From Pseudobutyrivibrio sp. (GTDB taxonomy: Bacteria; Bacillota; Clostridia; Lachnospirales; Lachnospiraceae), in contig JABUSV010000186.1 of assembly GCA_021442555.1 (NCBI GenBank), positions 1-55,965 on the forward strand: a stretch of DNA of 55,965 nucleotides, given 5' to 3'. This document shows positions 42,944 through 55,965 of this stretch, piece after piece; positions within the stretch are counted from its first letter, which is position 1; the number at the start of each line of letters is the position of its first letter. The notes beneath the pieces are model-generated. The model saw only the letters and a list, made by a program, of their open reading frames with translations, was not told the DNA's origin and searched no databases. The position numbers were made by a program, and so were the translations under genes.

Positions 42944-44146
42944 TTAAATATTCTTCAAATCAAAGTATTTGATAACCTCTCCAATAAAATACAGAGAACC
43001 AAACACTATTATTCTATTGTCAAAACAGCAAGCCCGTTCCATGGCTTCTTCTATCGAAGTGCAGTCTATGGCCTCAATTCCATCAGCATTTATCTCATCC
43101 GCCAGTGTCTTTGCCTGAAGTGCCCTGCTGTAGTCCACTGTAAGTGTAAAAAATCTGTCAGCCAGAGGTTCCATCAGCAGCATCATTTCGTGATAATCCT
43201 TGTCTGCCATGACTCCTACTAAAAAGGTGTATTTTTCCTTGGAACCAAAGGCATCAATAAGGCCATCTCTTAACGCCTCTACTCCATTAGGGTTGTGAGC
43301 ACCATCTATAAGTACATAAGGCTCCCTGGATATGATCTGCATACGTCCTGGCCAAACTGCTTTCTTTAGACCCAATATGACTGCATCATCACTAACACCC
43401 ATTGCCTTGCAGGCTCTTTGAGCAACTCCTGCATTAAATCTCTGATACTTGCCAAAAAGTCCCAGTTCAATATCATCTTTAACTGGATCTGCTATTGTAT
43501 AATCAACATTAAGCTCACAACATCTGTCTTCAATAACTCTTAAAGCCTCCTTGGGGATTTCGCTTCCAATAACACATTTTTTAACCTGAGGCTTAATAAT
43601 TCCAGCTTTTTCTTTGGCTATCTTTTCTATTGTATCTCCCAATATGGCTGTATGTTCCAGGCCAATGCTTGTTATGGCGCACACTTCAGGTATAGTTTGA
43701 AGTCCCGACGAGGAATCCTTTGCTCCACCCAAGCCCGTTTCCAACACCATGTGGGAAATATTTTTTTCCTTAAAATAAATAAGACCCATTGCAAGACAAT
43801 AGTCAAACATAGTGGGTTCAAGCTCAGGTGTCAGCTCAAGCAGAAGCGTTCCTATTCTTGTAACATCCTCATCGGATATCTGCTGTCCCTGCACCATAAT
43901 ACGTTCATTAAATTTTACAAGATGAGGGGAAGTAAAAGTGCCTACACTATACCCCTGCTGCATAAGAATACTAGTGGCAAAGGCTGCTGTTGAGCCTTTG
44001 CCATTGGTACCAGCAATATGCAATATTTTCATTCCTTCTTCAGGATGACCCAGGAGCTCTAAAAGCTCCTCAGTCACTTCTTTGCCACAGGCCTTTCCGA
44101 AGCGACGTTTGTTCTCTATTGTATCTACCACCTGTTGGTAAGTCAT
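42944..44146 (-). CDS. folC: Folylpolyglutamate synthase/dihydrofolate synthase
   Basis: HIAGTNGKGST, FTSPHL, ETGLGG, EKAGIIK, WPGR, DGAHN, GSLY. Confidence 0.95.
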   Translation of the reverse strand: MTYQQVVDTIENKRRFGKACGKEVTEELLELLGHPEEGMKILHIAGTNGKGSTAAFATSILMQQGYSVGTFTSPHLVKFNERIMVQGQQISDEDVTRIGTLLLELTPELEPTMFDYCLAMGLIYFKEKNISHMVLETGLGGAKDSSSGLQTIPEVCAITSIGLEHTAILGDTIEKIAKEKAGIIKPQVKKCVIGSEIPKEALRVIEDRCCELNVDYTIADPVKDDIELGLFGKYQRFNAGVAQRACKAMGVSDDAVILGLKKAVWPGRMQIISREPYVLIDGAHNPNGVEALRDGLIDAFGSKEKYTFLVGVMADKDYHEMMLLMEPLADRFFTLTVDYSRALQAKTLADEINADGIEAIDCTSIEEAMERACCFDNRIIVFGSLYFIGEVIKYFDLKNI

Positions 44147-44983
44147 TTACACCACCATTATAAGTCCGCCATCGTTGGCATACATACTACTTACTCCACG
44201 CGTATCAACGATAAAAATATCCTTGAAATCACACAAAGCTTCCATTTTTTCCTTGAGCATCTGAGCCTTGGCAGGAGCATTACAGTGTGAGATGGCAAGT
44301 ATTTTCTCCTGAGAATTCTCAGTAACCTCCATAAGACATTGCCCCATCTTGTCAAGGGCCTTGACCATACCTCTGGCCTGTGCCAGCTGCTGAATACTTC
44401 CTTCATCTGTAGAACCCATAATAGGCTTGATGTTAAGAGTACCTGCAATAGCTGCCTTGAGATTACTGAGACGACCGGCTTTTCTAAGTGTATCCAGTGT
44501 CTCTAATACAAAAAATGTATGCTGTCCTTCGATATATTCATTAACAGTCTCTACCACTTCTTCAAAGCTCATACCGGCTTCTTCACACTCTGCTATCTTA
44601 AGTCCAATAAGAGTCTCACCTATTGATGCAGACTTGGAATCAAATACATGAATACATTTACTGTCGTCGTCCTCCTCATACAAGTCCTTGCCCAGGCATG
44701 CACTGTTGTATGAACCAGATAACTGAGCAGATAAAGTAACAACATATATGTGCTCTGCCTCGTCATCCATTTCAAGCATATAGGCATTTGGCGATGGACA
44801 GGCTGACTTTGGAGATACATCACAGCTTGCTACCTTTTCCAGGAAAGACGCCTGGTCAAAGTTCTCATCGTCTGGTATCTCTTCCTCTCCCAAACGCAGA
44901 GTAAGTGGGACATTTACAAAATGTCCATCCCTTTTCATCTCCTCAGTTAGTTCACCACAACTATCAATAATAATCTTGTACAA
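44147..44983 (-). CDS. DegV family fatty-acid-binding protein (FakB-like)
   Basis: IIIDS, SACPSP, LSGSYNSA, FDSKSAS, GRL, LNIKPI. Confidence 0.93.
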   Translation of the reverse strand: MYKIIIDSCGELTEEMKRDGHFVNVPLTLRLGEEEIPDDENFDQASFLEKVASCDVSPKSACPSPNAYMLEMDDEAEHIYVVTLSAQLSGSYNSACLGKDLYEEDDDSKCIHVFDSKSASIGETLIGLKIAECEEAGMSFEEVVETVNEYIEGQHTFFVLETLDTLRKAGRLSNLKAAIAGTLNIKPIMGSTDEGSIQQLAQARGMVKALDKMGQCLMEVTENSQEKILAISHCNAPAKAQMLKEKMEALCDFKDIFIVDTRGVSSMYANDGGLIMVV

Positions 44984-45033
44984 CTCTATATCCTCTTTTT
45001 CGTTAAGATATTCTATCTATAGTATTGCTAATA

Positions 45034-46245
45034 TCAATGCTTCCATTGGAATGTAAGGACATTAACATTATCATCTGTAATATATGAGACATTGCGTATC
45101 TCCCAGCAAAAGTCTGTCAGATGCATATCTGTAATAAAATATTGTACTGTCTGATTCATAAGGGCAGTATCAGAAAACTTAAGGCTTATCTCATCTTCCA
45201 AAAGATCCCAGCTATCACCAAGAGTATATCCTATCCCACCAACATCCCAGCTGTCAAAATATCTGCTTTCCTTGACAAAATAGTTGTCTTCGCTGGCAAA
45301 ACAATTTGGAACAATAAAATCTGTATCCAGTTCATGGGTAGCTAACAGTTCGTCTGTTGTCATGGACATGTACGCATAATTTACATGTTTTTCTTCCATG
45401 CTGTCTGTACTAAGATATCTGGAATTGCCCCAGGTAACATCCATGTAGTAATAATTGCCATCCATCTTTACAAGATTCCATGCATGAGGTTCTCCATGAG
45501 CATTACCCGTGATAACAGTACATGGAACTCCAAGTTCTTCAAGCATATACCAGGCAGCATCGGAATATCCCTGACACACTGTTCTTTGATTTAAAAAAAC
45601 AGAAACAATATTTTGATTATCTTCACTGTTTGTATCGTATTCTACATTGTTAATCAACGTCTCAAATACATATTTGACCTTGTCATAATCGCTGTCAGTA
45701 AAGGAAATACCTACCATCCACTGTTCAACGGTGTCGTCTATCCTCTGTTGGATGTCATCCCGTTGTTCCTTGGTCATGGTGTAGCTTGGAACAAACTCCA
45801 GGCTAATTATGGCATCGCCCTGAGTGTATGTATTATATACATAACCGTTCACCCAGAACAGCCCACCGTAGTCAGCCTTAACGCAATTGAAGGCTGTATC
45901 CAAAACATCTGCATCCTTGGTCAAAAGAACTACTTTTTCCTTGTGACCTAAAATGGTATCCAATACCTGATCGTATACCTGTCTTGTCTCATCATTAAGC
46001 TGCTGGTATGCATATCTGTCGTAGGATATGGAAGTAACCTTCTCAGGTTCACCAACCACCACATTACCCACCTGCTGATAGTACCATTCCTTGACATCTT
46101 CAGTATTTTCGGCCTCTGTCAATTCCTTTGGCGAAAAATTGTCAAAGTGTAGTCCGCTGATATCAAAATCTAAAAAAACAGCTACTCCTAAGACAACACA
46201 CAGTATAAAAAGTGATCTAAATAAAAATCTGAATAATCTCTTCAA
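45034..46245 (-). CDS. Membrane-anchored transglutaminase-like domain protein
   Basis: Cys-His-Asp triad: VCQGYS, HAWNLV, YMDVTW. Confidence 0.88.
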   Translation of the reverse strand: MKRLFRFLFRSLFILCVVLGVAVFLDFDISGLHFDNFSPKELTEAENTEDVKEWYYQQVGNVVVGEPEKVTSISYDRYAYQQLNDETRQVYDQVLDTILGHKEKVVLLTKDADVLDTAFNCVKADYGGLFWVNGYVYNTYTQGDAIISLEFVPSYTMTKEQRDDIQQRIDDTVEQWMVGISFTDSDYDKVKYVFETLINNVEYDTNSEDNQNIVSVFLNQRTVCQGYSDAAWYMLEELGVPCTVITGNAHGEPHAWNLVKMDGNYYYMDVTWGNSRYLSTDSMEEKHVNYAYMSMTTDELLATHELDTDFIVPNCFASEDNYFVKESRYFDSWDVGGIGYTLGDSWDLLEDEISLKFSDTALMNQTVQYFITDMHLTDFCWEIRNVSYITDDNVNVLTFQWKH

Positions 46246-46348
46246 ACAAACACCTATACCAAAACCTACTTCTTTACTTGTAAAGAGGTATACTATTCCT
46301 TTTTACAATCCATTTAATTTTAATACATCCTCTTGGTTTTGTCCAAAG

Positions 46349-46373
46349 AAAAAAGCGGTGATAAAATCACCGC
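46349..46373 (-). terminator. Terminator of csp transcript
   Basis: GCGGTGAT/ATCACCGC with U-tract. Confidence 0.75.
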
Positions 46374-46467
46374 CCCCCTTAATCATGTCGTTCTCGCCTA
46401 GCTATTTATTACCACTTTCGTGAAAAACAAAAGGTACTTGAAAAACTCTGATTAAACTGTCATACAA

Positions 46468-46671
46468 CTAGCGAACTACTGTTACGTTAATTGCCTGTGG
46501 TCCCTTAGCGCCATCTGTAACATCATACTCAACAGCTGCACCCTCTTCGAGAGTTCTGTAGCCTTCTGCATTGATGCCACTGAAGTGAACGAACACATCG
46601 TTGCCTGACTCATCACAGATGAATCCGAAGCCCTTTGCACCGTTAAACCACTTAACTGTACCCTTGCTCAT
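46468..46671 (-). CDS. Cold-shock protein (CspA family)
   Basis: [24 protein letters not shown]. Confidence 0.96.
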
Positions 46672-46717
46672 TTTGGTACCTCCAATTTCATACTCGCCGA
46701 TTTATATCGACTAAGTA

Positions 46718-46746
46718 AGAATATCATAACGGCATATTATACGCAA
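46718..46746 (-). promoter_or_regulatory. sigma-A-type promoter of csp
   Basis: TTGCGT-17 bp-TATTCT with extended TG. Confidence 0.55.
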
Positions 46747-46756
46747 TATACATATC

Positions 46757-48448
46757 CTAACGAACGTCTTTACCATTCTTCAATTTGGTCTTGTTTGCGT
46801 ACATATTCTGATCAGCTTTTTCAAACAGTTCTTCATAGCTTTCACCATCTGTTCCCAAAGTAGCCATTCCGATTGCTATGGTTGGGCTGCCAGAATCCAA
46901 AGTATCACCTTTTTTGCTCATTACCTCCATGAAATCGTGAACCAGAACCTCTCTGTTATAGTAATCCTCAGAATCAAGTATTACTACAAACTCATCTCCG
47001 CCTATTCTAAAAACAGGACTGTGCGCAAAGGTCTTGCATATAACTTTGCTGGCGGCAACAATCATCTTGTCACCTTCTTCATGTCCGTAATTATCATTGA
47101 TAGTCTTAAGGTTGTTCACATCACAAACCAACACCGCGTAGTCTTTATCCTGAGTAGAGTATTCTACACTTATTTTATCTACATACTGTCTGTAGGCAGT
47201 CTTGTTTCTAAGTCCTGTCAATTCATCCTTGAGAGCCATATCATTGATATACTGGATATACTCCTTGGTCTTCTTGGCCATCACAGTAATGTTTTCTGTC
47301 AAAATCTGCAGCTCATCATTGGTGTTACAGCTAACCTTGGCGTCCCAGTCTCCTTCAGCAAAGCTCTTGGTGGCTGCTGTAATCTTGATAATAGGCTCTG
47401 TAATATGCCTAATCATTCTGGCCGATGTAAAAATAGTAATAATTAAAAATCCTATAAGAATAAGTCCACTATAGATAATAACCATGGTTTTTTGCGATTC
47501 TATGTCCGCCACCTTGGCATACATGATAAGCTTCATGTTATTTCTAAGGGTGTTAAATTCATAGGCATATTTACCATCTATAGTATTAAAATATTCCAGC
47601 TCACCTGACTTATCATTGTTTTTAATAGTAACTAACATCTCATCAGAGAGCTTGTCACCAAACACATTATTTTCTTTATAGTATATAGCTTCACTGTCTA
47701 CACTTGCCAGTACGACTCCTCCTGTTTGATATACCGCAATATCCTCAGCCTTCTCCAATATACTGTCAAACGCTATATCCATACCAATAAGACCTATCAG
47801 AATATCGCCTTCATAAACAGGAACAATGTAAGATATCATTTCTACACCAACATTATCATTGTAGTATCTGTCCATCCACACAGCCTCACCTGCATTAACT
47901 GGTGTATAATACCAACCTACATGTTCAACATCATCCGGTTCATATGCAGTTATATCCGTTAATATAGTCTCCTCAAACTCTCCTGTCTCTGGAGATTTGA
48001 CATAGAAAAAGCCCAACCTGGTGTTGCTGCTCAAGGTTGGTTCAACAAAATAGTATACTGACATAACTCCATCAGTATTCTCTGCTATCTTAAGTGCTGT
48101 ATTTGTGAATTCATGTAAGAAAAGTCTCACCCTCCATGCTGAACGCAGTTCACTTGCAGGAGGTCTTACACCTTCAGAAATGTGATAGATATTATTTACC
48201 GACTGCTCCACAAGTCTAAGCTGAGAATTAACACTTTGCAGCTGTGCTTCACAGCTCTCACGAAGCATGGTCTCAGAGTTTCTTTTTATAAAATAATCCG
48301 TAATAAACACATTAACCACAATCATTACTATGGATAACAGAATAATGCTTATAGTTAACTGCGAATTAATCTTATTTCTTATTGACTTTCGGATTGCAAA
48401 ATTTAAATTGTCCATCTGTGGTTGTGCACCCCTCATCATACACTGCAA
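46757..48448 (-). CDS. Diguanylate cyclase (Cache sensor, HAMP, GGDEF); probable start at ATG 48415
   Basis: WYYTPV/YYND Cache-like segment, HAMP, DELTGLRN, DVNNLKTINDNYGH, RIGGDEF, ADQNMY. Confidence 0.93.
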   Translation of the reverse strand: MQCMMRGAQPQMDNLNFAIRKSIRNKINSQLTISIILLSIVMIVVNVFITDYFIKRNSETMLRESCEAQLQSVNSQLRLVEQSVNNIYHISEGVRPPASELRSAWRVRLFLHEFTNTALKIAENTDGVMSVYYFVEPTLSSNTRLGFFYVKSPETGEFEETILTDITAYEPDDVEHVGWYYTPVNAGEAVWMDRYYNDNVGVEMISYIVPVYEGDILIGLIGMDIAFDSILEKAEDIAVYQTGGVVLASVDSEAIYYKENNVFGDKLSDEMLVTIKNNDKSGELEYFNTIDGKYAYEFNTLRNNMKLIMYAKVADIESQKTMVIIYSGLILIGFLIITIFTSARMIRHITEPIIKITAATKSFAEGDWDAKVSCNTNDELQILTENITVMAKKTKEYIQYINDMALKDELTGLRNKTAYRQYVDKISVEYSTQDKDYAVLVCDVNNLKTINDNYGHEEGDKMIVAASKVICKTFAHSPVFRIGGDEFVVILDSEDYYNREVLVHDFMEVMSKKGDTLDSGSPTIAIGMATLGTDGESYEELFEKADQNMYANKTKLKNGKDVR

Positions 48449-48661
48449 ATACGAAAACGTATAAGTAAAATATAATCAGATCAGTCACAACACTATTTCC
48501 CCTAAAATCCTATGATTTATCACCATAGAATACAAAAACAAGTATTAAACAATACTTGTGAATATACTATCATTTTTTTTGCAAATTTTGTGAATAATTG
48601 CATGAATTCATAAAGAATTGCGAGTTTAGACACAGCTTGCACATATTCTCACCCAAATATG

Positions 48662-49237
48662 CTATTCAACCGTAGCTAAATAGCTTAAAAGCTCTTCACA
48701 CCTTTCCATGGTCATCTCTGCCATCACTGTGCTGTACTCTACCACACCAATGGGATTACCATTATATTCATCCCTTATCTGTTCTGCCGATGTGTTTCGG
48801 TTATTTTCCCAGGTCAATTGCTCTTTGACTATCTTTTCATAGCTGGTTTCATCTACAATATTCATAATGTAATCAAGAAGCTTTTGCATGCATTCATCTG
48901 CAACGTCATAGGCTTTGTCCATGTTGTCATTTGCTTCTTTTGTTGTAATAAAATCGCAGGCTTTTTTTACATAATCTTCATAGTCAGATTTGTATTCACT
49001 AACAATAGCCTCTGCTTTAAGATAAGTCTCAGATTTAGGAGCCTCCTTAGTATCTGATGTTATCGTTTCACCTGCCTTGGCTTCAGGTATTGCATCCTCT
49101 GTTTCAAAAGAATCTGATGTCTTGGATTCCACAGGTATAGTCGTATCATAATCATTGTCATCTATAGTATTTGAGCCTCCACACGCAGTAAAAAGTATAC
49201 CGCAGAGGGCAACTACAAAAGCATACTTATATCTCAT
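48662..49237 (-). CDS. Lipoprotein with C-terminal LprI/DUF1311-like domain
   Basis: Lipobox FTAC; EQLTWENNRN...TMERCEEL pattern. Confidence 0.75.
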   Translation of the reverse strand: MRYKYAFVVALCGILFTACGGSNTIDDNDYDTTIPVESKTSDSFETEDAIPEAKAGETITSDTKEAPKSETYLKAEAIVSEYKSDYEDYVKKACDFITTKEANDNMDKAYDVADECMQKLLDYIMNIVDETSYEKIVKEQLTWENNRNTSAEQIRDEYNGNPIGVVEYSTVMAEMTMERCEELLSYLATVE

Positions 49238-49327
49238 TTACGCCTTCTCCTATCAGCTGCAAAAACATATGAGATATATTACTATTTTAATGTGAAAATA
49301 CTGTTATCTTGAAAATGCTGGAATCTA

Positions 49328-50011
49328 TTATTTCTTTGCCTGGTTTTTTTTCATCTGTTGCCAGCTGAAGAACCCATACAAATCATTAATAAGAAATATT
49401 ACAAAACACACTACGACTGATATATAGCTTTTGTTCTGCAGGGTGGCGATAATCCAAAGAATAATCAGTACCAGATCATTGGAAGCATAAGCCAAGGCAA
49501 AAAATTCACACCTTCGCATGGTAAGATAAGAAGCAACAAAGCTGGTAAAAACAGACAGCGTGCTAAAGATTAGTGCCGGTGTATCCAAAGCGCGTAGAAT
49601 GAAAAAGAATACGCTTGTCACACCACATGATAAGAAAAACAAAAAAATATATTCCACCTTTTTCAGGTGATTTACCTCCACCTCATTTTTACCGTTGTCA
49701 GATGGATTCTTTATCCAAGTAATGATTGATGCCATTGCAATAGGCGCTGTCATCCCAAGATAGGTGATCATCTCTCCGTAATAAGCCTTATTATAGGAAA
49801 TAACACCATACATAATACTAAAGACAACTGTAAGGATCTGTCCCCACACGTTGCCCTTGGCATTTAAAATCAAAAAAGTCGTTCCCACAAGAGATGCTAT
49901 AAGCACCAATATATCTATTGGCCCAAAAATAAGCGCAGAAACTGAAATAGTGACCACCGACACTATCCATAGGATTATTTCGAATCTCGTAAAATATGAT
50001 GTTAAGCGCAT
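49328..50011 (-). CDS. pnuC: PnuC-family nicotinamide riboside/vitamin transporter
   Basis: LNAKGNVWGQ, YYGEMITY, YASNDLVLIILW, NDLYGFFSW. Confidence 0.85.
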   Translation of the reverse strand: MRLTSYFTRFEIILWIVSVVTISVSALIFGPIDILVLIASLVGTTFLILNAKGNVWGQILTVVFSIMYGVISYNKAYYGEMITYLGMTAPIAMASIITWIKNPSDNGKNEVEVNHLKKVEYIFLFFLSCGVTSVFFFILRALDTPALIFSTLSVFTSFVASYLTMRRCEFFALAYASNDLVLIILWIIATLQNKSYISVVVCFVIFLINDLYGFFSWQQMKKNQAKK

Positions 50012-50042
50012 AATATTTCCTTTTATACAGATGCATTCTGAT

Positions 50043-50591
50043 TTATTGTAGCATCCATCTTTTCTTTACAGGATAGTGCTCTCCTGTCAACCAGAAATCC
50101 TTAGTAGATATATTATCCCAATCCTTTTTAGATAATTGCCCTTCATAAACCACATAGCACAGTGTCACTTCTTTTTTTTCATAAGGCATTAACTCAATAT
50201 CTAATTGAGGTGTGTCTGTCAAAAGCTGAGCTTCAGCGGCCACCCCGTTTGCATAGACCAATGTTTCAAGATATAAATCATATAAATATACAGGTATAGT
50301 GCTGTCTGTTATGTTTGAAACACTTGCCTCTACTTCGATAATATCAAAATCAGTTCCGTCTGATACTTCCAGTACATCTTGTCCATATATCTTGACAGCT
50401 TCTTCATTAGTGTATACTTTTGCATTATTTACGGTAAGTGTACAGCATTCCTGCCACTGCTCTGATGTATTAAATGCAATATCTTTGTATTCTACCTGGG
50501 GATATTTCATGTTTATTCTGACTGTAGCTACTATTATACATACAAACAGGATAAATCCTACTACAAATAATATATATTTAGACTTTTTCAA
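50043..50591 (-). CDS. Membrane-anchored exported protein (DUF5028/DUF4352-like)
   Basis: N-terminal TM, RINMKYPQ, beta-rich domain, C-terminal YPVKK; overlaps the ABC gene. Confidence 0.65.
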   Translation of the reverse strand: MKKSKYILFVVGFILFVCIIVATVRINMKYPQVEYKDIAFNTSEQWQECCTLTVNNAKVYTNEEAVKIYGQDVLEVSDGTDFDIIEVEASVSNITDSTIPVYLYDLYLETLVYANGVAAEAQLLTDTPQLDIELMPYEKKEVTLCYVVYEGQLSKKDWDNISTKDFWLTGEHYPVKKRWMLQ

Positions 50592-51210
50592 GTTTACCTT
50601 CCTTCATTGAATACATTTCATCTACAAGCTCACCCATCTCATCAAAATCATGAGAGGCTACAATAATCAACGCTCCTCTTTTCTTCTCTTCTGCCAGAAT
50701 GTTTCTTAATCTTATAACAGATTCATCGTCTAACCCATTAGTCGGCTCATCAAGAATTATCAAATCAGGTTGTTCAAATATTGCAGCCGCAATACCAAGC
50801 TTTTGCCTCATTCCAAGGGAATACTGTCTATACTTCTTCCCGCTATCTTCAGCAAGCCCAACTCTGGCTATTGTATTCTCAATATCTTTTTGGCTGGCAA
50901 TCTTTTTTATCGAAGCCAGCATTGAGAGGTTATCATAGGCCGTCAGTCCTCCATGAAAGCCTGAATTTTCAATCATTAATCCAACACTACGTGGGAAATC
51001 CATATCCCTTCCAAGACACATATCATCGATGTATATCTCCCCTTCATTTAATTTGATCAACCCACATATAGCCCTAAGAAGCATAGTCTTCCCTGAACCA
51101 TTTTTGCCTTTTAAACCATATATTTTTCCAGAAGAGAACTGTACATTACAGTTACTTAGAATACTGTTATTCTTTATCTCCTTTGATATATTTCTCACAT
51201 CTATAATCAT
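50578..51210 (-). CDS. ABC transporter ATP-binding protein (YybJ-like)
   Basis: GKNGSGKT, YSLGMRQKL, ILDEPTNGLD, SHD. Confidence 0.93.
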   Translation of the reverse strand: MIIDVRNISKEIKNNSILSNCNVQFSSGKIYGLKGKNGSGKTMLLRAICGLIKLNEGEIYIDDMCLGRDMDFPRSVGLMIENSGFHGGLTAYDNLSMLASIKKIASQKDIENTIARVGLAEDSGKKYRQYSLGMRQKLGIAAAIFEQPDLIILDEPTNGLDDESVIRLRNILAEEKKRGALIIVASHDFDEMGELVDEMYSMKEGKLEKV

Positions 51211-51219
51211 GCCTTCTAC

Positions 51220-52014
51220 CTACCATTCCATGTATGTCGAGCATTTCACCCACACCAATAATGTAATTATCAAATATATAATACAGCCCGCCACCGTCCA
51301 TACGCTTCCCAATCCCATTGCAGGCACCAAAAATACATTAGGACATATCACTATAGTCTGAAACAAACCACCCAAAGTAAATAAACAGTAATAAATAGCA
51401 AATGGGAAAACACTGGCTAAAATATAACTGTCCACCAAATGAAAAATTCCACAGGAAAAAAGTGCTGTGGTTCCAGAAAACAAACCATCAAATAGAATAT
51501 AACTAATGGTATAGATTAAGGGATGTTTATAAAATAAGGCAGCCCCTATCTCGTTTGCATATGGTCCTACTGCTATTAAAGGATCAGGATACAAAAGAGG
51601 TCTGACGGTCATTGTAAGTGTAAAATTAAGCAACAGCGGCACAGCTATAACCATAAATCCCAATGAAAAGATCATTCCGCCCGTTTTAAGGCAAAATGCT
51701 TTTTTAGTCATACGTACCTTGTGCTGCATATAATAGTTATTCTTAACCAGAATCCCATACTCTATACATACAGACATGCCTGAAAGAATTGGAAGGATAA
51801 GATAAAACCAGTTACTGTGGACAAAATACAACGACCCACCAATCCATGATATATATGCATTTTCAGGAATCCCATAAGCCATGTTATTCCATAAAAATGC
51901 GTTTTCTATAAACTGCCATAAAGCAATGAAAGTTCCCACCATCAGTGAGACAAAAAACATCTTATGAGTAGAAATAAAATTATTAAAAACCATTTTTACA
52001 ACTTTTTCTCCCAA
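51220..52014 (-). CDS. Multi-TM membrane protein, probable ABC permease; start uncertain
   Basis: About 6 TM, WIGG, FYLILPIL, PLLLNF, HPLIY. Confidence 0.75.
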   Translation of the reverse strand: MGEKVVKMVFNNFISTHKMFFVSLMVGTFIALWQFIENAFLWNNMAYGIPENAYISWIGGSLYFVHSNWFYLILPILSGMSVCIEYGILVKNNYYMQHKVRMTKKAFCLKTGGMIFSLGFMVIAVPLLLNFTLTMTVRPLLYPDPLIAVGPYANEIGAALFYKHPLIYTISYILFDGLFSGTTALFSCGIFHLVDSYILASVFPFAIYYCLFTLGGLFQTIVICPNVFLVPAMGLGSVWTVAGCIIYLIITLLVWVKCSTYMEW

Positions 52015-52771
52015 AACAAACTAAGAATAAAATTCCAATCCCATAAAGAACAAGCACTAAGATCATCATTTTATTATCTTCAATAATCCATGAATTTTTT
52101 GAGAGCATTGCAAGCTGCGCAGGTAATAACCCAATCTCCAACAGCACTCCTGCAACTGCCAGCCCAATGCTTACACAAATACCAATCAACGGAGAAATTT
52201 TTATCTCTATAATCAGTTGAACCAATCCTACAAGATATGACCGTAAAATAAACAGCAAACTGGTAATAATATATGCTTTAAAAGAAAAATCATCATAAGA
52301 AGACTCTATAGTATCTGCAGTTAGTGGCACACATATTATTTTTTCAATAAAAACCGTTCCAATAAGAATACAACCCAACACGGTGTAGTATATTATTGCC
52401 ACGAATGCAATCCATCTGATTCTTCTATTCCACCATTTGCTAATACTTTCATACCTTATTAGACTTTGAACTTTCCCTGTTATTTCATCATAAGCAAATC
52501 CCATTATTGTCATGCTAAATCCAATTTGTATTGTCAGCCACTCTATAGGAAGATCCCTCTTCCTCTGTGTCATAAACCCAAAGCTTTTCCTTGTTCCATA
52601 TAAGATTTTTCCCAGATGATATTGAACCGATGATGGCAGACAATATCCTTCATTTATCGCCATTACATAATCTGCCAACTGACTAAATAAGATTATGAAA
52701 ATAGCAATTACAGGTATTATTATCAATAATTTCCTGTTCCCTATTCCATATTTTATTTCAAAATCATTCAT
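51983..52771 (-). CDS. Multi-TM membrane protein, probable ABC permease (DUF2705-like)
   Basis: About 6 TM, LPIEW, QSLIRYESISKWW. Confidence 0.72.
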   Translation of the reverse strand: MNDFEIKYGIGNRKLLIIIPVIAIFIILFSQLADYVMAINEGYCLPSSVQYHLGKILYGTRKSFGFMTQRKRDLPIEWLTIQIGFSMTIMGFAYDEITGKVQSLIRYESISKWWNRRIRWIAFVAIIYYTVLGCILIGTVFIEKIICVPLTADTIESSYDDFSFKAYIITSLLFILRSYLVGLVQLIIEIKISPLIGICVSIGLAVAGVLLEIGLLPAQLAMLSKNSWIIEDNKMMILVLVLYGIGILFLVCFGRKSCKNGF

Positions 52772-52777
52772 ATATAT

Positions 52778-53485
52778 TTAAAAATCCATCTCTGGTTCTA
52801 GGTATACAAAACAATACTTATCATTAGATGTCCCATTAATTAAAGCCATGGTTTCATCTTCAGCGTACAAACACAACACATTATCCTTCGTCAAATAATC
52901 TTCGTTTTCCATATAAAAAACATATTCAACGTTGGTAATTTCTTCTCCAGTTATAGGCTGATCTATAAAAACATCCGCAGTATCTCTTATTTCCTTTGGC
53001 AGATTCGAATGATATGAAGTTGTGATAAATGTGCTCATGTCCAGCATTTCTCCTGATTTAAGGTTATAACACATAGTATACAATCCCCAGGAACACAATC
53101 TTTCATCATCCAAAACGCTGATATCCATATTAATAACCGCATAATATCCATCAGTCTGAAGTACACCATCTATCTCATCATCATCTAGTGTATCAACCAG
53201 ATTAATCCAATCTCCATGAGTCTTGGTAACTCTGGCCGAATTCACTTTAATCTTAAAACCTGCTTTTTCAAACGTATCTCCTGCCTTATATACCTCGCAG
53301 CCTTTTCCTATTTCCTCTATTCTTGCTACAGTATCTGTATTATCCTCTTCACTATCGACTATTATTATCTCTGGTAAAACTTCATTACCCTCTTCTGCTA
53401 CATTTTTTTCTGAGTTACCGCATCCTGCCAATAGTATAGCCGATAAAATAAACAATATCGCTTTATTCTTTTTGATTCCAAACAT
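52778..53485 (-). CDS. Acidic lipoprotein of unknown function
   Basis: Lipobox LLAGC; RBS AAGGAA. Confidence 0.8.
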   Translation of the reverse strand: MFGIKKNKAILFILSAILLAGCGNSEKNVAEEGNEVLPEIIIVDSEEDNTDTVARIEEIGKGCEVYKAGDTFEKAGFKIKVNSARVTKTHGDWINLVDTLDDDEIDGVLQTDGYYAVINMDISVLDDERLCSWGLYTMCYNLKSGEMLDMSTFITTSYHSNLPKEIRDTADVFIDQPITGEEITNVEYVFYMENEDYLTKDNVLCLYAEDETMALINGTSNDKYCFVYLEPEMDF

Positions 53486-53509
53486 ATTGTACCGTTCCTT
53501 TATTTAAAC

Positions 53510-53545
53510 CCGCAGTCTATCACTATTATACATGATAGACTGTGG
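53510..53545 (-). terminator. Stem-loop after first gene of the operon (leaky terminator or stabiliser)
   Basis: CCGCAGTCTATCA/TGATAGACTGTGG with only a short U-tract on minus strand. Confidence 0.65.
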
Positions 53546-53554
53546 TAATATTAA

Positions 53555-54007
53555 TTAATATCTATTACTTATATTATCTGGGCTCCACTTGCCTGATACT
53601 TTATGAATTGCATTATCCTGCCTTATTACTACCATTGGATACGCATACTTTCTGTTACCATACAGCCAGTTTGAAATATATCTATATGACCCGGTTGGTA
53701 CAGATACCCAATCTGAATATATCTTAGGATCTATACCCGTGCAGCTAGTTGCTACATTTGTACCTGCAACTGCTGTATTGAATTTCGTCGACTTAGCATT
53801 GTTTTTGACATAAGTAGCAGTATCATCCTGTTTTTCTCTTGCAGGACTTATACTTCCATCTGATCCATCTGCATAAAAATTAAAATCAAACGTCGCATCC
53901 TTATAGTTATTAGCACTTGCTATATTCTTGGTTTGAATTATCGTACAAGCCATTAAAATAAAAACAAAAATCTTACGTGCAAAAACCTTACTTTTACATT
54001 TTTCCAT
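53555..54007 (-). CDS. Small secreted beta-rich protein with C-terminal SGKWSPD motif (YybN/DUF2712-like by context)
   Basis: Signal peptide ending ASA; REKQDDTATYV; GKWSPD; RBS GGAGG. Confidence 0.75.
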   Translation of the reverse strand: MEKCKSKVFARKIFVFILMACTIIQTKNIASANNYKDATFDFNFYADGSDGSISPAREKQDDTATYVKNNAKSTKFNTAVAGTNVATSCTGIDPKIYSDWVSVPTGSYRYISNWLYGNRKYAYPMVVIRQDNAIHKVSGKWSPDNISNRY

Positions 54008-54113
54008 AAATACCTCCGTTTTAATGTAAATTATTTGTTCTACAATTAGATATTGCCGGCCATCTAATTCTACAATCCAAATATATCACTTTTAATACAC
54101 AAAAAAACAAAAA

Positions 54114-54149
54114 GGGTACAAACTGCATTGTTTTGGGTACGAACTGCAT
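54114..54149 (-). promoter_or_regulatory. Direct repeat with 21-bp period, LytTR-type operator candidate
   Basis: Minus strand ATGCAGTTCGTACCC-N6-ATGCAGTTTGTACCC (14/15 identical), i.e. GCAGTT-N15-GCAGTT. Confidence 0.7.
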
Positions 54150-54180
54150 ACTTCACCTCAAAAAATGATACTCAAGCCAT

Positions 54181-54355
54181 AAAAAACCTAGAGTATAATT
54201 ACTCTAGGCCAGACTGACGCGCAAACTTTCGGTCCACTGAAGCATATTCTGCCACAGTTAGCGTAATTCAATCTAACGCTGTTTCATATTAAGTATTAGC
54301 TACGAATCATCGGCTATGTTCTCTTTGTCAGTTGGATCTACCCAACAGCTAGTAT
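54181..54355 (-). ncRNA. Structured ncRNA candidate ending in an intrinsic terminator
   Basis: Stems UAGCUGUUGG/CCGAU..UAGCUA, AGCGU/ACGCU, ACUGAC/GUCAGU; terminator CCUAGAGUA/UACUCUAGG-UUUUUU at 54181-54208; no annotated ORF. Confidence 0.6.
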
Positions 54356-54385
54356 TGAATAATTCTTTTATTTGGCTAAAATATA

Positions 54386-54844
54386 ATGAGCGTAAAATCA
54401 GTAGCATTTGGAGTTATCATTGTTATGGGAAAAATAGAAAAAACTTATACTAAAACAAAATGTGGAGTTCCCGTTGAACAAACATATACATTAGAGCCTG
54501 CTTTAAACAATATGTATGAAAACATGAGTATGAAAGCATTGGCCAAAGAGATATTGCTTGAAGAAAACTATGTGAGATATATAAAGTCCTATTATTTTAC
54601 ATTTTGGGCTCAGATTCTGGGTATTTTGGCAGGCTTTCTTATTCCTATGATTATATTTAGCATTTATCTTAAGGATATAGAAAATGGTATCCTTGCAGGA
54701 GCTGGATTTGGGAGTATGTGGATGATTCTTTGGATTCCGGGAGCACTGTTGCTGCCGCAAACAAGGATATACAGACAATTTGCCAAATGGTACAGAGATG
54801 ATAATTCGCAAATATATGAATTGAACTTAATATTTAAAAAATAA
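54386..54844 (+). CDS. Hypothetical 2-TM membrane protein; start may be ATG 54425
   Basis: ORF with two hydrophobic helices, co-oriented with the next gene. Confidence 0.7.
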   Translation: MSVKSVAFGVIIVMGKIEKTYTKTKCGVPVEQTYTLEPALNNMYENMSMKALAKEILLEENYVRYIKSYYFTFWAQILGILAGFLIPMIIFSIYLKDIENGILAGAGFGSMWMILWIPGALLLPQTRIYRQFAKWYRDDNSQIYELNLIFKK

Positions 54845-54865
54845 TACTCAGGGAGAACAAATAAT

Positions 54866-55117
54866 ATGTATGAAAATCACAATGTAAAAGTTACAGTATT
54901 AAGCAGCAAATGTCCCAAATACAAAGCCGGAGACGAGATACACTTCAACGGTGCTTTTATAGACAAAGAAAGCAGTGCTGAACTTTGCATGGTTGCCATG
55001 CAAGCCATTTATCCATTTATATATGCTTTCAGACGCGGTGGAAAACTAAAAGAAGGTCCTTATCAATGTACAGATTGTGAAGAAACAGTCGTATTTAGGA
55101 TTGAGCAAAACGATTAA
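54866..55117 (+). CDS. TIGR04076-family small Cys-rich protein
   Basis: KVTVLSSKCP..KAGD, LC..A...IYP, QCTD...VVFRIE; RBS GGGAG. Confidence 0.8.
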   Translation: MYENHNVKVTVLSSKCPKYKAGDEIHFNGAFIDKESSAELCMVAMQAIYPFIYAFRRGGKLKEGPYQCTDCEETVVFRIEQND

Positions 55118-55227
55118 TTTAACCTGGGAACCCAGTGCAATCTCAAGGAGGGGCCCACATTGGTGGGAGGATTCCTTGAGATAGGAGAATTTGCATGCAA
55201 ATTCGACATTTCTCAACCAACTAAACT

Positions 55228-55247
55228 AGCGCGAGACGGGACTCGAA
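55228..55247 (-). mobile_element. tRNA-Gly 3'-end fragment, probable att site of an integrated element extending to the right
   Basis: Minus strand TTCGAGTCCCGTCTCGCGCT = T-loop, T-stem 3' strand, acceptor 3' strand and U73; no 5' half; TTTAGACGC direct repeats nearby. Confidence 0.75.
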
Positions 55248-55372
55248 TACCCTTCAAAATTTTCTTAAATCTCCCAACCCCCGAAAATACAAGGAAAGGA
55301 AGACCTGTACCTCCGGGGAGATTTGTTTTAGACGCAGTTTAGACGCGAAATATATCCTATCACATTCTCATA

Positions 55373-55401
55373 TTGACAAATATGTCACTCGAAAGTAAAA
55401 T
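55373..55401 (+). promoter_or_regulatory. Near-consensus sigma-A promoter of the antitoxin RNA
   Basis: TTGACA-17 bp-TAAAAT. Confidence 0.8.
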
Positions 55402-55407
55402 CTATCT

Positions 55408-55497
55408 AAACAGAGCACTCGCCCACAAGGTGGGTTAGCTCCCGAGATGAACTATAGCCTATCTCAGCTCGCCAAAGTTGAGGGATAGGCTATTTTT
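55408..55497 (+). ncRNA. Antisense antitoxin RNA (about 90 nt) of a type I TA module
   Basis: Promoter upstream; ends at ATAGCCTATC...GATAGGCTAT-TTTT terminator abutting the toxin stop codon; convergent with the toxin. Confidence 0.72.
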
Positions 55498-55594
55498 ATT
55501 TGCGCTTGTTATTCCTATCGTCTAAATAGGCAAGCAATGCTATTAAGAAAGTACCAGCCAGAAACAATGTTGTCAGAACTTCATATGTACTCAT
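55496..55594 (-). CDS. Type I toxin, holin-like/TxpA-type 32-aa peptide MSTYEVLTTLFLAGTFLIALLAYLDDRNNKRK
   Basis: Translated by hand; RBS GGGAGGTG; MSTYE start, single TM helix, charged C-terminus; below the ORF-track cutoff. Confidence 0.88.
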   Translation of the reverse strand: MSTYEVLTTLFLAGTFLIALLAYLDDRNNKRK

Positions 55595-55669
55595 GATAGC
55601 ATCACCTCCCTTCCATGAAATGGCTCGGGAGGCTAACCACACCTCATAACACGAGTGCTCATGACGAAA

Positions 55670-55698
55670 ATAATATCACACTAAAAATGTTACCTCAA
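55670..55698 (-). promoter_or_regulatory. Promoter of toxin mRNA
   Basis: TTGAGG-17 bp-TATTAT with extended TG. Confidence 0.65.
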
Positions 55699-55965
55699 TA
55701 AAATTCGAACATTTTTTCGAAGTTGCACATTTTGATAAATTATCAAATTCTTCACAGATTTTACAAGTTATACAGATAATTATTCGCTATAACTGACACT
55801 CGCCCATGTCCCAGTTGCTTGTCATACAAAATATGGCAGTATACTTCAATGGTACTTTTATAGGCAAAGAAAGCAGCAAGAAACCCATGCGGGAACCCAA
55901 GGATACACAAACTCCACCTCTGTCACTTCAATTGATTATTATTGACACATTTATTACAAAGGGTA

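What the first reader, a model, noticed from the sequence alone, without database searches (positions are those of the whole stretch)
50043..54149. AT-rich secreted-protein/ABC operon of unknown function under probable LytTR-type control
Seen: six co-oriented, mostly tightly spaced genes encoding a 150-aa secreted protein ending SGKWSPD, an acidic lipoprotein, two divergent multi-TM proteins, an ABC ATPase and a membrane-anchored exported protein. A stem-loop after gene 1 could make the secreted protein the most abundant product. Known: the layout recalls the uncharacterised Bacillus subtilis yybNMLKJ operon and lactococcin-972-type bacteriocin/immunity loci. Inference: an uncharacterised secreted effector (antimicrobial, signalling or surface-assembling protein) with dedicated ABC-type immunity or export machinery. 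This is the best candidate for an undescribed system in the window.
Basis: partly seen in the sequence, partly recalled or inferred. Interest (0 to 1): 0.75.

Follow-up and report, generated by a model that had tools for sequence, protein, structure and literature searches.

The report
Jelly-roll bacteriocin candidate with ABC immunity
This six-gene cassette, shared by gut bacteria, Bacillus and small Lactococcus plasmids, pairs a predicted secreted protein with a membrane transporter that many relatives keep after losing the secreted gene, so it is likely an unstudied antibacterial protein with its own self-protection machinery.

Summary
There are six co-oriented genes and a hairpin after gene 1 (z -4.6). 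A repeat pair with 21-bp period recurs, with the same promoter layout, at only two other sites in the genome, one directly behind a LytTR regulator gene. Gene 1 is a DUF2712 protein with a predicted jelly-roll fold. Genes 3-5 are a likely type V ABC transporter; genes 2 and 6 are related Ig-like surface proteins. The cassette is conserved: 33 of 33 gene-1 loci have the gene-4 permease. It is the only cargo of 8.5-kb Lactococcus plasmids. Among 42 close permease loci, gene 1 is intact in 19, broken in 6, absent in 13 and undetermined in 4, while the transporter stays intact. The gene-1-less loci are not one clade (AU p 1.7e-5). This orphan pattern fits a secreted antibacterial protein with ABC self-immunity (about 55%): it would work like lactococcin 972, but it is not in that family. 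Against: a Lactococcus strain carrying the cassette is not among the producers in a published screen, and no activity is shown. The layout matches the uncharacterised B. subtilis yybNMLKJ operon. No earlier scan note covered it.

The parts
54185..54210 (-). Terminator-like hairpin with T run, upstream of the promoter; likely insulates it
54114..54149 (-). Direct-repeat pair, 15 nt, 21-bp period; likely LytTR-regulator binding site
   Evidence: same pair and downstream layout at G000:C92 (behind a receiver+LytTR gene) and C207; 0 of 400 other family genomes
54080..54088 (-). Extended -10-like element, aligned at the same distance in all three repeat promoters (inferred)
   Evidence: alignment printed
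53555..54007 (-). Gene 1: DUF2712 protein, predicted Sec signal peptide (about 1-32), 118-aa mature jelly-roll of 13.3 kDa, pI 9; candidate antibacterial effector
   Evidence: Pfam 22.1 bits vs cut-off 22; 49 of 71 aligned relatives hit DUF2712; Atlas 0.94; AlphaFold pLDDT 92; fold searches
53510..53545 (-). Stem-loop after gene 1; likely sets gene 1 in excess over the rest
   Evidence: similar hairpin after gene 1 in 20 of 36 related loci vs 1/22, 2/42, 2/37, 5/37, 3/34 after the other genes
52778..53485 (-). Gene 2: acidic lipoprotein, DUF5027/DUF4352-like Ig-fold surface protein; the fastest-diverging and optional part
51983..52771 (-). Gene 3: six-segment membrane protein, DUF2705-like, distant paralogue of gene 4
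51220..52014 (-). Gene 4: six-segment ABC-2-type (type V) permease; start may be the ATG 21 nt into the frame
50578..51210 (-). Gene 5: ABC ATPase
50043..50591 (-). Gene 6: membrane-anchored Ig-fold protein (DUF5028/DUF4352, MPT63-like fold)

Best explanation
The cassette likely encodes a secreted antibacterial protein (gene 1) together with a dedicated ABC transporter and Ig-like surface proteins (genes 2-6) that would protect the producer, and it is likely switched on by a LytTR-type response regulator. Shown: the gene set, its conservation, the hairpin, the three-site repeat family, carriage on small mobilizable plasmids, and repeated loss or decay of gene 1 with the transporter kept. Predicted: Sec export of a 13-kDa jelly-roll protein; type V transporter; Ig folds. 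Inferred: a LytTR regulator (best candidate G000:C92:99-812) binds the repeats; the hairpin yields much more effector than immunity proteins; the effector binds an envelope target (glycan, lipid or protein; not identified) on related Gram-positive bacteria through its invariant residues (K59, W141-S-P-D144 and near-invariant N34, D37, R57, D61); the G3/G4/G5 transporter, helped by G2 and G6, strips it from the producer's own membrane, as LanFEG and the Lcn972 ABC are thought to do; relatives that drop gene 1 become immune non-producers.
For: (1) Orphan pattern: of 42 strong gene-4 matches in 201 genomes, gene 1 is intact in 19, broken in 6 (one in-frame stop, three frameshifts, one internal deletion, one lost N-terminus), absent in 13 and undetermined in 4. 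In the 6 broken loci the transporter genes that were detected are each in one frame. (2) Five orphan-carrying genomes show no gene-1 relative elsewhere, only weak matches (E 0.01-0.1) within the first 81 profile positions; G014 and G109 have only distant types at other cassettes. (3) Orphans are spread over the permease tree; monophyly rejected, p-AU 1.7e-5, 11 state changes. (4) The whole cassette is the only cargo beside rep/mob genes on 8.5-9-kb Lactococcus lactis plasmids, and a five-gene form sits on a 10-kb Bacillus cereus plasmid; Lcn972 is likewise carried with its putative immunity ABC on an 11-kb plasmid (PMC4055356, passages). (5) LytTR/agr-type genes lie in 16 of 59 cassette loci by a strict search; 21-bp-period repeats just upstream of -35 are the LytTR layout of bacteriocin promoters (PMC6193735, passages). 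(6) The pneumococcal Lcn972-like streptococcin B locus is LytTR(ComE)-controlled and 27.5% of genomes keep only the predicted immunity genes (PMC11796350, abstract and passages). (7) B. subtilis yybN genes are listed among Rok-repressed, AT-rich, probably acquired units beside the sunA, sboA-alb, sdp and yyd operons (PMC2978689, passages); that these four are antimicrobial loci is recalled.
Against: No activity is shown for any member. L. lactis UC063 carries the cassette on pUC063E yet is not among the six strains that inhibited L. lactis HP in a screen of 'all the available strains' (PMC6458302, passages); one indicator and one condition, and expression there is unknown. The fold matches no known bacteriocin; best hits are generic jelly-rolls at Z 7-9. 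Mature proteins are not uniformly cationic (pI above 8 in 32 of 71). Gene 1 does not diverge faster than the permease, and its distances track gene 4 only weakly (Mantel rho 0.20) and gene 2 not at all (0.09, p 0.15). Loss of a secreted gene with receptor and transporter kept also fits any shared secreted good. Some orphan loci (L110, L111, L118) have other exported ORFs upstream that could be unrecognised partners. L085 has an intact gene 1 but no gene-3-type ORF, and L033 has a broken extra gene-4 copy. No AgrB was found in this 84%-complete genome.
Confidence: 0.55

Rival explanations
1. Assembly or release machine: gene 1 is an abundant structural or adhesive subunit (fibre, matrix or lectin), and the type V ABC with the Ig proteins releases, folds or assembles it on the surface.
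For: Jelly-roll matches include Ena spore-appendage subunits and carbohydrate-binding modules. The hairpin implies subunit excess. Invariant N- and C-terminal motifs could be assembly contacts. A YybN-GFP fusion was punctate (PMC13599486, passages). The negative bacteriocin screen.
Against: An assembly machine without its subunit should decay, yet 19 of 38 determinable loci keep it without an intact gene 1, and only 2 of the 13 gene-1-less loci show a split transporter gene. The Ena alignments (Z 6.2-7.0) mostly have rmsd about 6-7 A and run into the signal peptide; the Ena1C match (rmsd 4.0) is no better than other jelly-rolls. The mature chain starts about five residues before the first strand, with no connector arm.
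Confidence: 0.17
2. Shared scavenger or decoy: the secreted protein binds a nutrient, a host or rival antimicrobial, or a phage; the Ig proteins and ABC recapture it or protect the envelope, and non-producers keep the receptor side as cheaters.
For: Explains the orphan pattern equally well. Fold neighbours include ligand-binding modules and the lysozyme inhibitor PliG. A DUF4352 domain occurs in the mycobacterial phage-resistance protein Mpr (PMC12596739, search listing only). Small lactococcal plasmids often carry defence genes (established knowledge).
Against: Type V ABCs are not usual importers and no solute-binding protein is encoded. No PADLOC match for the non-ATPase proteins. No metal- or nutrient-regulator context was seen; the context is LytTR/agr-like.
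Confidence: 0.15
3. Protein signal: gene 1 is a secreted signalling protein sensed or cleared by the ABC complex and fed back to the LytTR regulator.
For: Frequent neighbourhood of LytTR/kinase genes; orphans could be eavesdroppers.
Against: Plasmid versions carry no kinase or regulator. A 13-kDa folded protein made in excess is unusual for a Gram-positive pheromone (established knowledge).
Confidence: 0.07
4. Ordinary nutrient importer or generic drug-efflux ABC with a passenger gene.
For: The ATPase resembles lantibiotic-protection and efflux ATPases (TIGR03740 167 bits, below the 309.75 cut-off), and the transporter occurs without gene 1.
Against: Gene 1 was never found without the permease (33 of 33). 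Distant gene-1 types sit on distinct permease branches. The hairpin after gene 1 is conserved.
Confidence: 0.06

Closest known systems
Bacillus subtilis yybNMLKJ operon (uncharacterised)
   Same: Small DUF2712 gene first, then membrane genes and an ABC ATPase; the DUF2712 profile hits the B. subtilis control genome; YybJ2KL is listed as a type V exporter of unknown function (PMC11466899); AT-rich, probably acquired (PMC2978689). The five-gene form on plasmid CP001168 has this layout.
   Different: Here there are two membrane proteins instead of three, plus two Ig-fold surface proteins, and LytTR-type repeats instead of Rok repression. That the B. subtilis DUF2712 hit is yybN, and that YybK is DUF2705, is recalled; the Yyb proteins were not aligned here.
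Lactococcin 972 family loci (Lcn972 on pBL1; pneumococcal streptococcin B, scbABC)
   Same: Unmodified bacteriocin gene followed by ABC genes thought to give immunity; small-plasmid carriage; LytTR-family control and natural loss of the bacteriocin gene with the ABC kept (PMC4055356, PMC11796350).
   Different: No sequence match to the Lcn972 families; mature protein 118 aa jelly-roll versus about 66 aa (recalled); ABC-2-type six-segment permeases instead of one large DUF1430/TIGR01654 membrane protein (recalled); extra Ig-fold proteins.
Lantibiotic immunity LanI + LanFEG (NisI/NisFEG)
   Same: Lipoprotein plus two different small permeases plus one ATPase; TIGR03740 is the ATPase's best NCBIfam match.
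   Different: Below cut-off; permeases match no Lan permease model; no precursor peptide or modification enzymes; the partner is a folded secreted protein.
Endospore appendage (Ena) jelly-roll pili
   Same: Small jelly-roll subunit among the fold matches.
   Different: Weak structural match, no N-terminal connector in the mature chain, Sec signal peptide, and an ABC partner.

Membership tests
DUF2712 (PF10916) / yybN-type loci | First gene scores at or above the Pfam DUF2712 cut-off | tested here: met
   22.1 vs 22 bits, borderline alone; 49 of 71 relatives match; Atlas features 0.94 and structure TM 0.76
DUF2712 (PF10916) / yybN-type loci | Followed by ABC-2-type/DUF2705 membrane genes and an ABC ATPase | tested here: met
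   ABC2_membrane_4 in 6 of 33 relatives; DUF2705 in 3 of 29; the window's own permeases score below Pfam thresholds
DUF2712 (PF10916) / yybN-type loci | Direct homology of genes 3-5 to B. subtilis YybM/L/K/J | not tested
   The B. subtilis locus could not be fetched with the searches available
Lactococcin 972 family bacteriocin loci | Precursor matches the Lcn972 family models (Pfam PF09683, TIGR01653; accessions recalled) | tested here: not met
   no such match for gene 1 or for 71 and 59 aligned relatives
Lactococcin 972 family bacteriocin loci | ATPase above TIGR03608 cut-off and a DUF1430/TIGR01654 membrane protein | tested here: not met
   102.6 vs 254.85 bits; no such membrane-protein match
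Lactococcin 972 family bacteriocin loci | Same fold as Lcn972 | tested here: inconclusive
   not among the listed matches; absence from a list does not exclude it
Bacteriocin (functional class) | Kills or inhibits other bacteria while the producer is immune | not testable with these tools
   only indirect genomic support; one published screen negative for a carrier strain
LanI/LanFEG lantibiotic immunity | ATPase above TIGR03740 cut-off; Lan permease models; lantibiotic genes nearby | tested here: not met
   167 vs 309.75 bits; no permease match; no precursor or modification gene among the ORFs of 44000-55965
LytTR-regulated promoter | Direct repeats with 21-bp period a few bases upstream of the -35 position | tested here: met
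   layout as in PMC6193735
LytTR-regulated promoter | Bound and activated by a LytTR protein | not testable with these tools
   9 LytTR genes in the genome; C92 is the candidate by position only
Ena-type jelly-roll pili | N-terminal connector arm in the mature subunit | tested here: not met
   first strand starts at residue 38, five residues after the predicted cleavage; Ena alignments use the signal peptide
Type I/II ABC importer | Solute-binding protein and importer-type permease | tested here: not met

The most novel reading that the evidence does not exclude
DUF2712 and its more distant relatives are a widespread, undescribed superfamily of folded jelly-roll bacteriocins of Gram-positive bacteria, each neutralised by a co-inherited type V ABC plus Ig-fold immunity module. 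Gut Lachnospiraceae-like bacteria collect orphan immunity modules against each other's variants, and the long-unexplained B. subtilis yybNMLKJ operon is the model-organism member.
Probability: 0.45. Interest if true: 0.8.

Novelty: new variant of a known kind. Interest (0 to 1): 0.58.

Why it matters
If true, it adds a new bacteriocin fold and immunity architecture that occurs in about a tenth of sampled genomes of a major gut family (43 of 401), with orphan immunity about as common as production. It would give a function to the B. subtilis yyb operon and to cryptic dairy Lactococcus plasmids. It is directly testable in two laboratory species.

Tried and rejected
No Rfam match in the window. 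No PDB sequence relative of gene 1 (best E 1.4). Foldseek gave no match at E<=0.001; VIA best Z 9.1 (GOLD domain) and 8.5 (XepA), treated as generic; Lcn972 not listed. No phage-record match for the Bacillus plasmid homologue; no plasmid match for gene 1 itself. PADLOC only matched the ATPase generically, and PHROGs gave two weak gene-2 matches. The exact repeat pattern was not found in 400 other family genomes, and a scan for tandem repeats upstream of gene 1 exceeded the shuffle maximum in only 6 of 37 loci, so this operator is not a conserved part of the cassette. Collection scans gave 3 loci for the ATPase and none for gene 1. A search from a WDEE-type homologue did not reach B. subtilis YybN. 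No RNA holder was listed. pnuC (49328-50011) follows gene 6 by 31 nt but was not found in any of 33 related loci, so it is not counted as a part. Literature: 'DUF2712' 0 papers; yybN/M/K/J 31 papers, 20 listed, none of those listed giving a function; operon names 2 papers, both on Rok; DUF2705/DUF5028/PF10916/PF10920/WSPD 133 papers, the 20 listed all unrelated uses of WSPD; DUF5027/4352/5028/2705 17 papers, the 12 listed only DUF4352; nothing relevant. The original Rok regulon paper (Albano 2005, recalled) was not held. Subscription journals and supplements were not searched and may hold phenotype data on yybN.
Full report
Observation. The hairpin after gene 1 is real (z -4.62, 0 of 200 shuffles). 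The cassette is 34.7% GC against a genome mean of 39.2%, mildly AT-rich. The host is probably a Lachnospiraceae-type bacterium, inferred from the names on a few homologues.

The parts. Gene 1 just passes the Pfam DUF2712 cut-off. 49 of 71 aligned relatives match DUF2712 and the Atlas agrees. A search of 1.84 billion representatives gave 83 relatives; I aligned 70 of them with the query, leaving out fragments and long outliers. Invariant positions are K59 and W141-S-P-D144; A32, N34, D37, R57, D61, Y66 and G106 are nearly invariant. AlphaFold gives an N-terminal helix (the predicted signal peptide) and a beta-sandwich (pLDDT 92). Fold searches place it among jelly-rolls with no specific relative: GOLD Z 9.1, XepA 8.5, CBM86 and PliG 7.3, PirA 7.1-7.7, Ena 6.2-7.0. 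Genes 3 and 4 are distant paralogues (profile probability 93.8%); relatives match ABC-2 membrane families and DUF2705. Genes 2 and 6 are also related (96.5%); relatives match DUF5027, DUF5028 and DUF4352, and the gene-6 model matches MPT63-like Ig folds (4LES, 4R4G, 3CFU).

Regulation. The repeat pair at 54114-54149 occurs at exactly three places in the genome under a relaxed search. Each is followed by the same T-rich spacer and extended -10-like element. One lies directly behind a receiver+LytTR gene (C92), one precedes another membrane protein and ATPase gene (C207). A 21-bp period just upstream of -35 is the published LytTR layout (PMC6193735, passages). The exact pattern was not found in 400 other family genomes, so the operator is lineage-specific. 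LytTR, kinase or AgrB-like genes lie within 16 of 59 cassette loci by a strict search with six queries. No AgrB was found in this 84%-complete genome.

Conservation. The gene-1 profile matches 43 of 401 family genomes (a few weak, partial matches included, 10 candidates scored per genome) and 3 of 401 across the phylum. I fetched 33 loci around the better matches. All 33 have the gene-4 permease, 31 a gene-3 type, 30 the ATPase (two of the three misses are cut by contig ends), 26 a gene-6 type and 16 a gene-2 type by the iterated model; the family models were grown on these same loci from the window's proteins. A strong hairpin follows gene 1 in 20 of 36 loci, against 1/22, 2/42, 2/37, 5/37 and 3/34 after the other genes. 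The cassette is also on plasmids: 8 records match gene 4. On the 8.5-kb Lactococcus plasmids it is the only cargo beside replication and mobilisation genes, and a five-gene form without the Ig proteins is on a 10-kb B. cereus plasmid. The minimal unit is therefore the secreted protein, the permeases and the ATPase.

The reverse test is the most informative result. A gene-4 profile search of 201 genomes gave 42 strong matches above 150 bits and a weaker tail. Of the 42, gene 1 is intact in 19, broken in 6 (from five genomes), absent in 13 and undetermined in 4 because of contig ends. In the 25 loci that have gene-1 sequence, no main copy of genes 3-6 was split; one extra gene-4 copy was (L033). 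The two split transporter genes lie in gene-1-less loci (L111, L118). Gene 1 is the shortest gene, so random assembly error should hit it least. Detection by a gene-4 profile biases towards intact gene 4, but not genes 3, 5 and 6. Five orphan-carrying genomes show no gene-1 relative elsewhere. Orphans, classed before the tree was built, are scattered among intact loci; holding them together is rejected (p-AU 1.7e-5, quick tree of 80 rows). I looked at 14 of the weaker loci: five carry more distant small secreted genes in the same first position, the rest none that the broad model found.

Mechanism. One-way dependence (secreted gene never without the transporter, transporter often without the secreted gene), selective decay of the secreted gene, selfish-plasmid carriage, excess expression and LytTR-type control together describe a bacteriocin with separate immunity. 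The closest studied parallel is pneumococcal streptococcin B, a ComE-controlled Lcn972-like bacteriocin where 157 of 571 genomes keep only the predicted immunity and transport genes (PMC11796350, abstract and passages); that paper notes the role of those genes is not experimentally verified. I therefore commit to a secreted, envelope-targeting antibacterial protein with ABC-plus-Ig self-immunity at 0.55. The target is unknown.

Against. L. lactis UC063 carries the cassette and is not among the six producers against L. lactis HP (PMC6458302, passages). The fold gives no hint of a toxic activity. Charge is not conserved, gene 1 is not unusually fast-evolving, and its distances track gene 4 only weakly and gene 2 not at all. 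The orphan pattern fits any shared secreted good, such as a scavenger or decoy. L085 has an intact gene 1 without a gene-3-type ORF. An assembly role (0.17) and a scavenger or decoy role (0.15) stay open.

Known systems. The layout is that of B. subtilis yybNMLKJ, which is in print only as a Rok-repressed, probably acquired operon (PMC2978689), a type V ABC of unknown function (PMC11466899) and a punctate GFP fusion (PMC13599486), all read as passages. DUF2712 returned no paper. It fails membership of the Lcn972 and LanFEG families on sequence but would work like them. Earlier scan notes did not cover it.

Verdict. A real, widespread, uncharacterised cassette; a new variant of a known kind; interest 0.58.

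Noticed in passing
window 55496-55594 (-), with arms 55430-55446 and 55624-55640: 32-aa Hol-Tox family peptide (Pfam PF16935, E 1.6e-9) flanked by complementary arms; likely a type I toxin-antitoxin module.
   Followed up: partly
G000:C57:156-566 (-) and G000:C97:6115-8982 (-): A second, distant cassette in the same genome: a small secreted gene with a hairpin and the start of a permease-like frame at the C57 end, and a permease, second membrane gene, ATPase and anchored protein starting at the C97 end; the two contigs may join.
   Followed up: partly
G000:C207:862-2469 and G000:C92:1-812: The two other promoters with the same repeat pair: one before a 374-aa membrane protein with no Pfam match and an ATPase, one behind the LytTR gene with its target cut off by the contig end.
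   Followed up: partly
G000:C2:7688-9880 (-): LytTR regulator followed by a gene-4-like permease and an ATPase, with no secreted gene.
   Followed up: no
window 54939-54975 and 55840-55876: 37-nt near-copy (89%) of part of the TIGR04076 gene 901 nt away, suggesting a duplication scar near the contig end.
   Followed up: no
L028, L040, L077, L078, L087: Tandem copies of gene-2/gene-6-like surface genes (three in L040), and a repeated gene-1 plus surface-gene unit in L028, like expanding immunity arrays.
   Followed up: no
L037, L114, L121 (one genome, G009): Cassettes with no ATPase gene in the locus; they may share one in trans.
   Followed up: no
L133, L134, L137, L141, L142: Small secreted first genes with no significant Pfam match, linked to distant gene-4 permeases; possibly a wider superfamily.
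   Followed up: partly
window 49328-50011 and 48662-49237 (-): PnuC transporter and an LprI-domain lipoprotein directly downstream; not part of the conserved cassette.
   Followed up: yes
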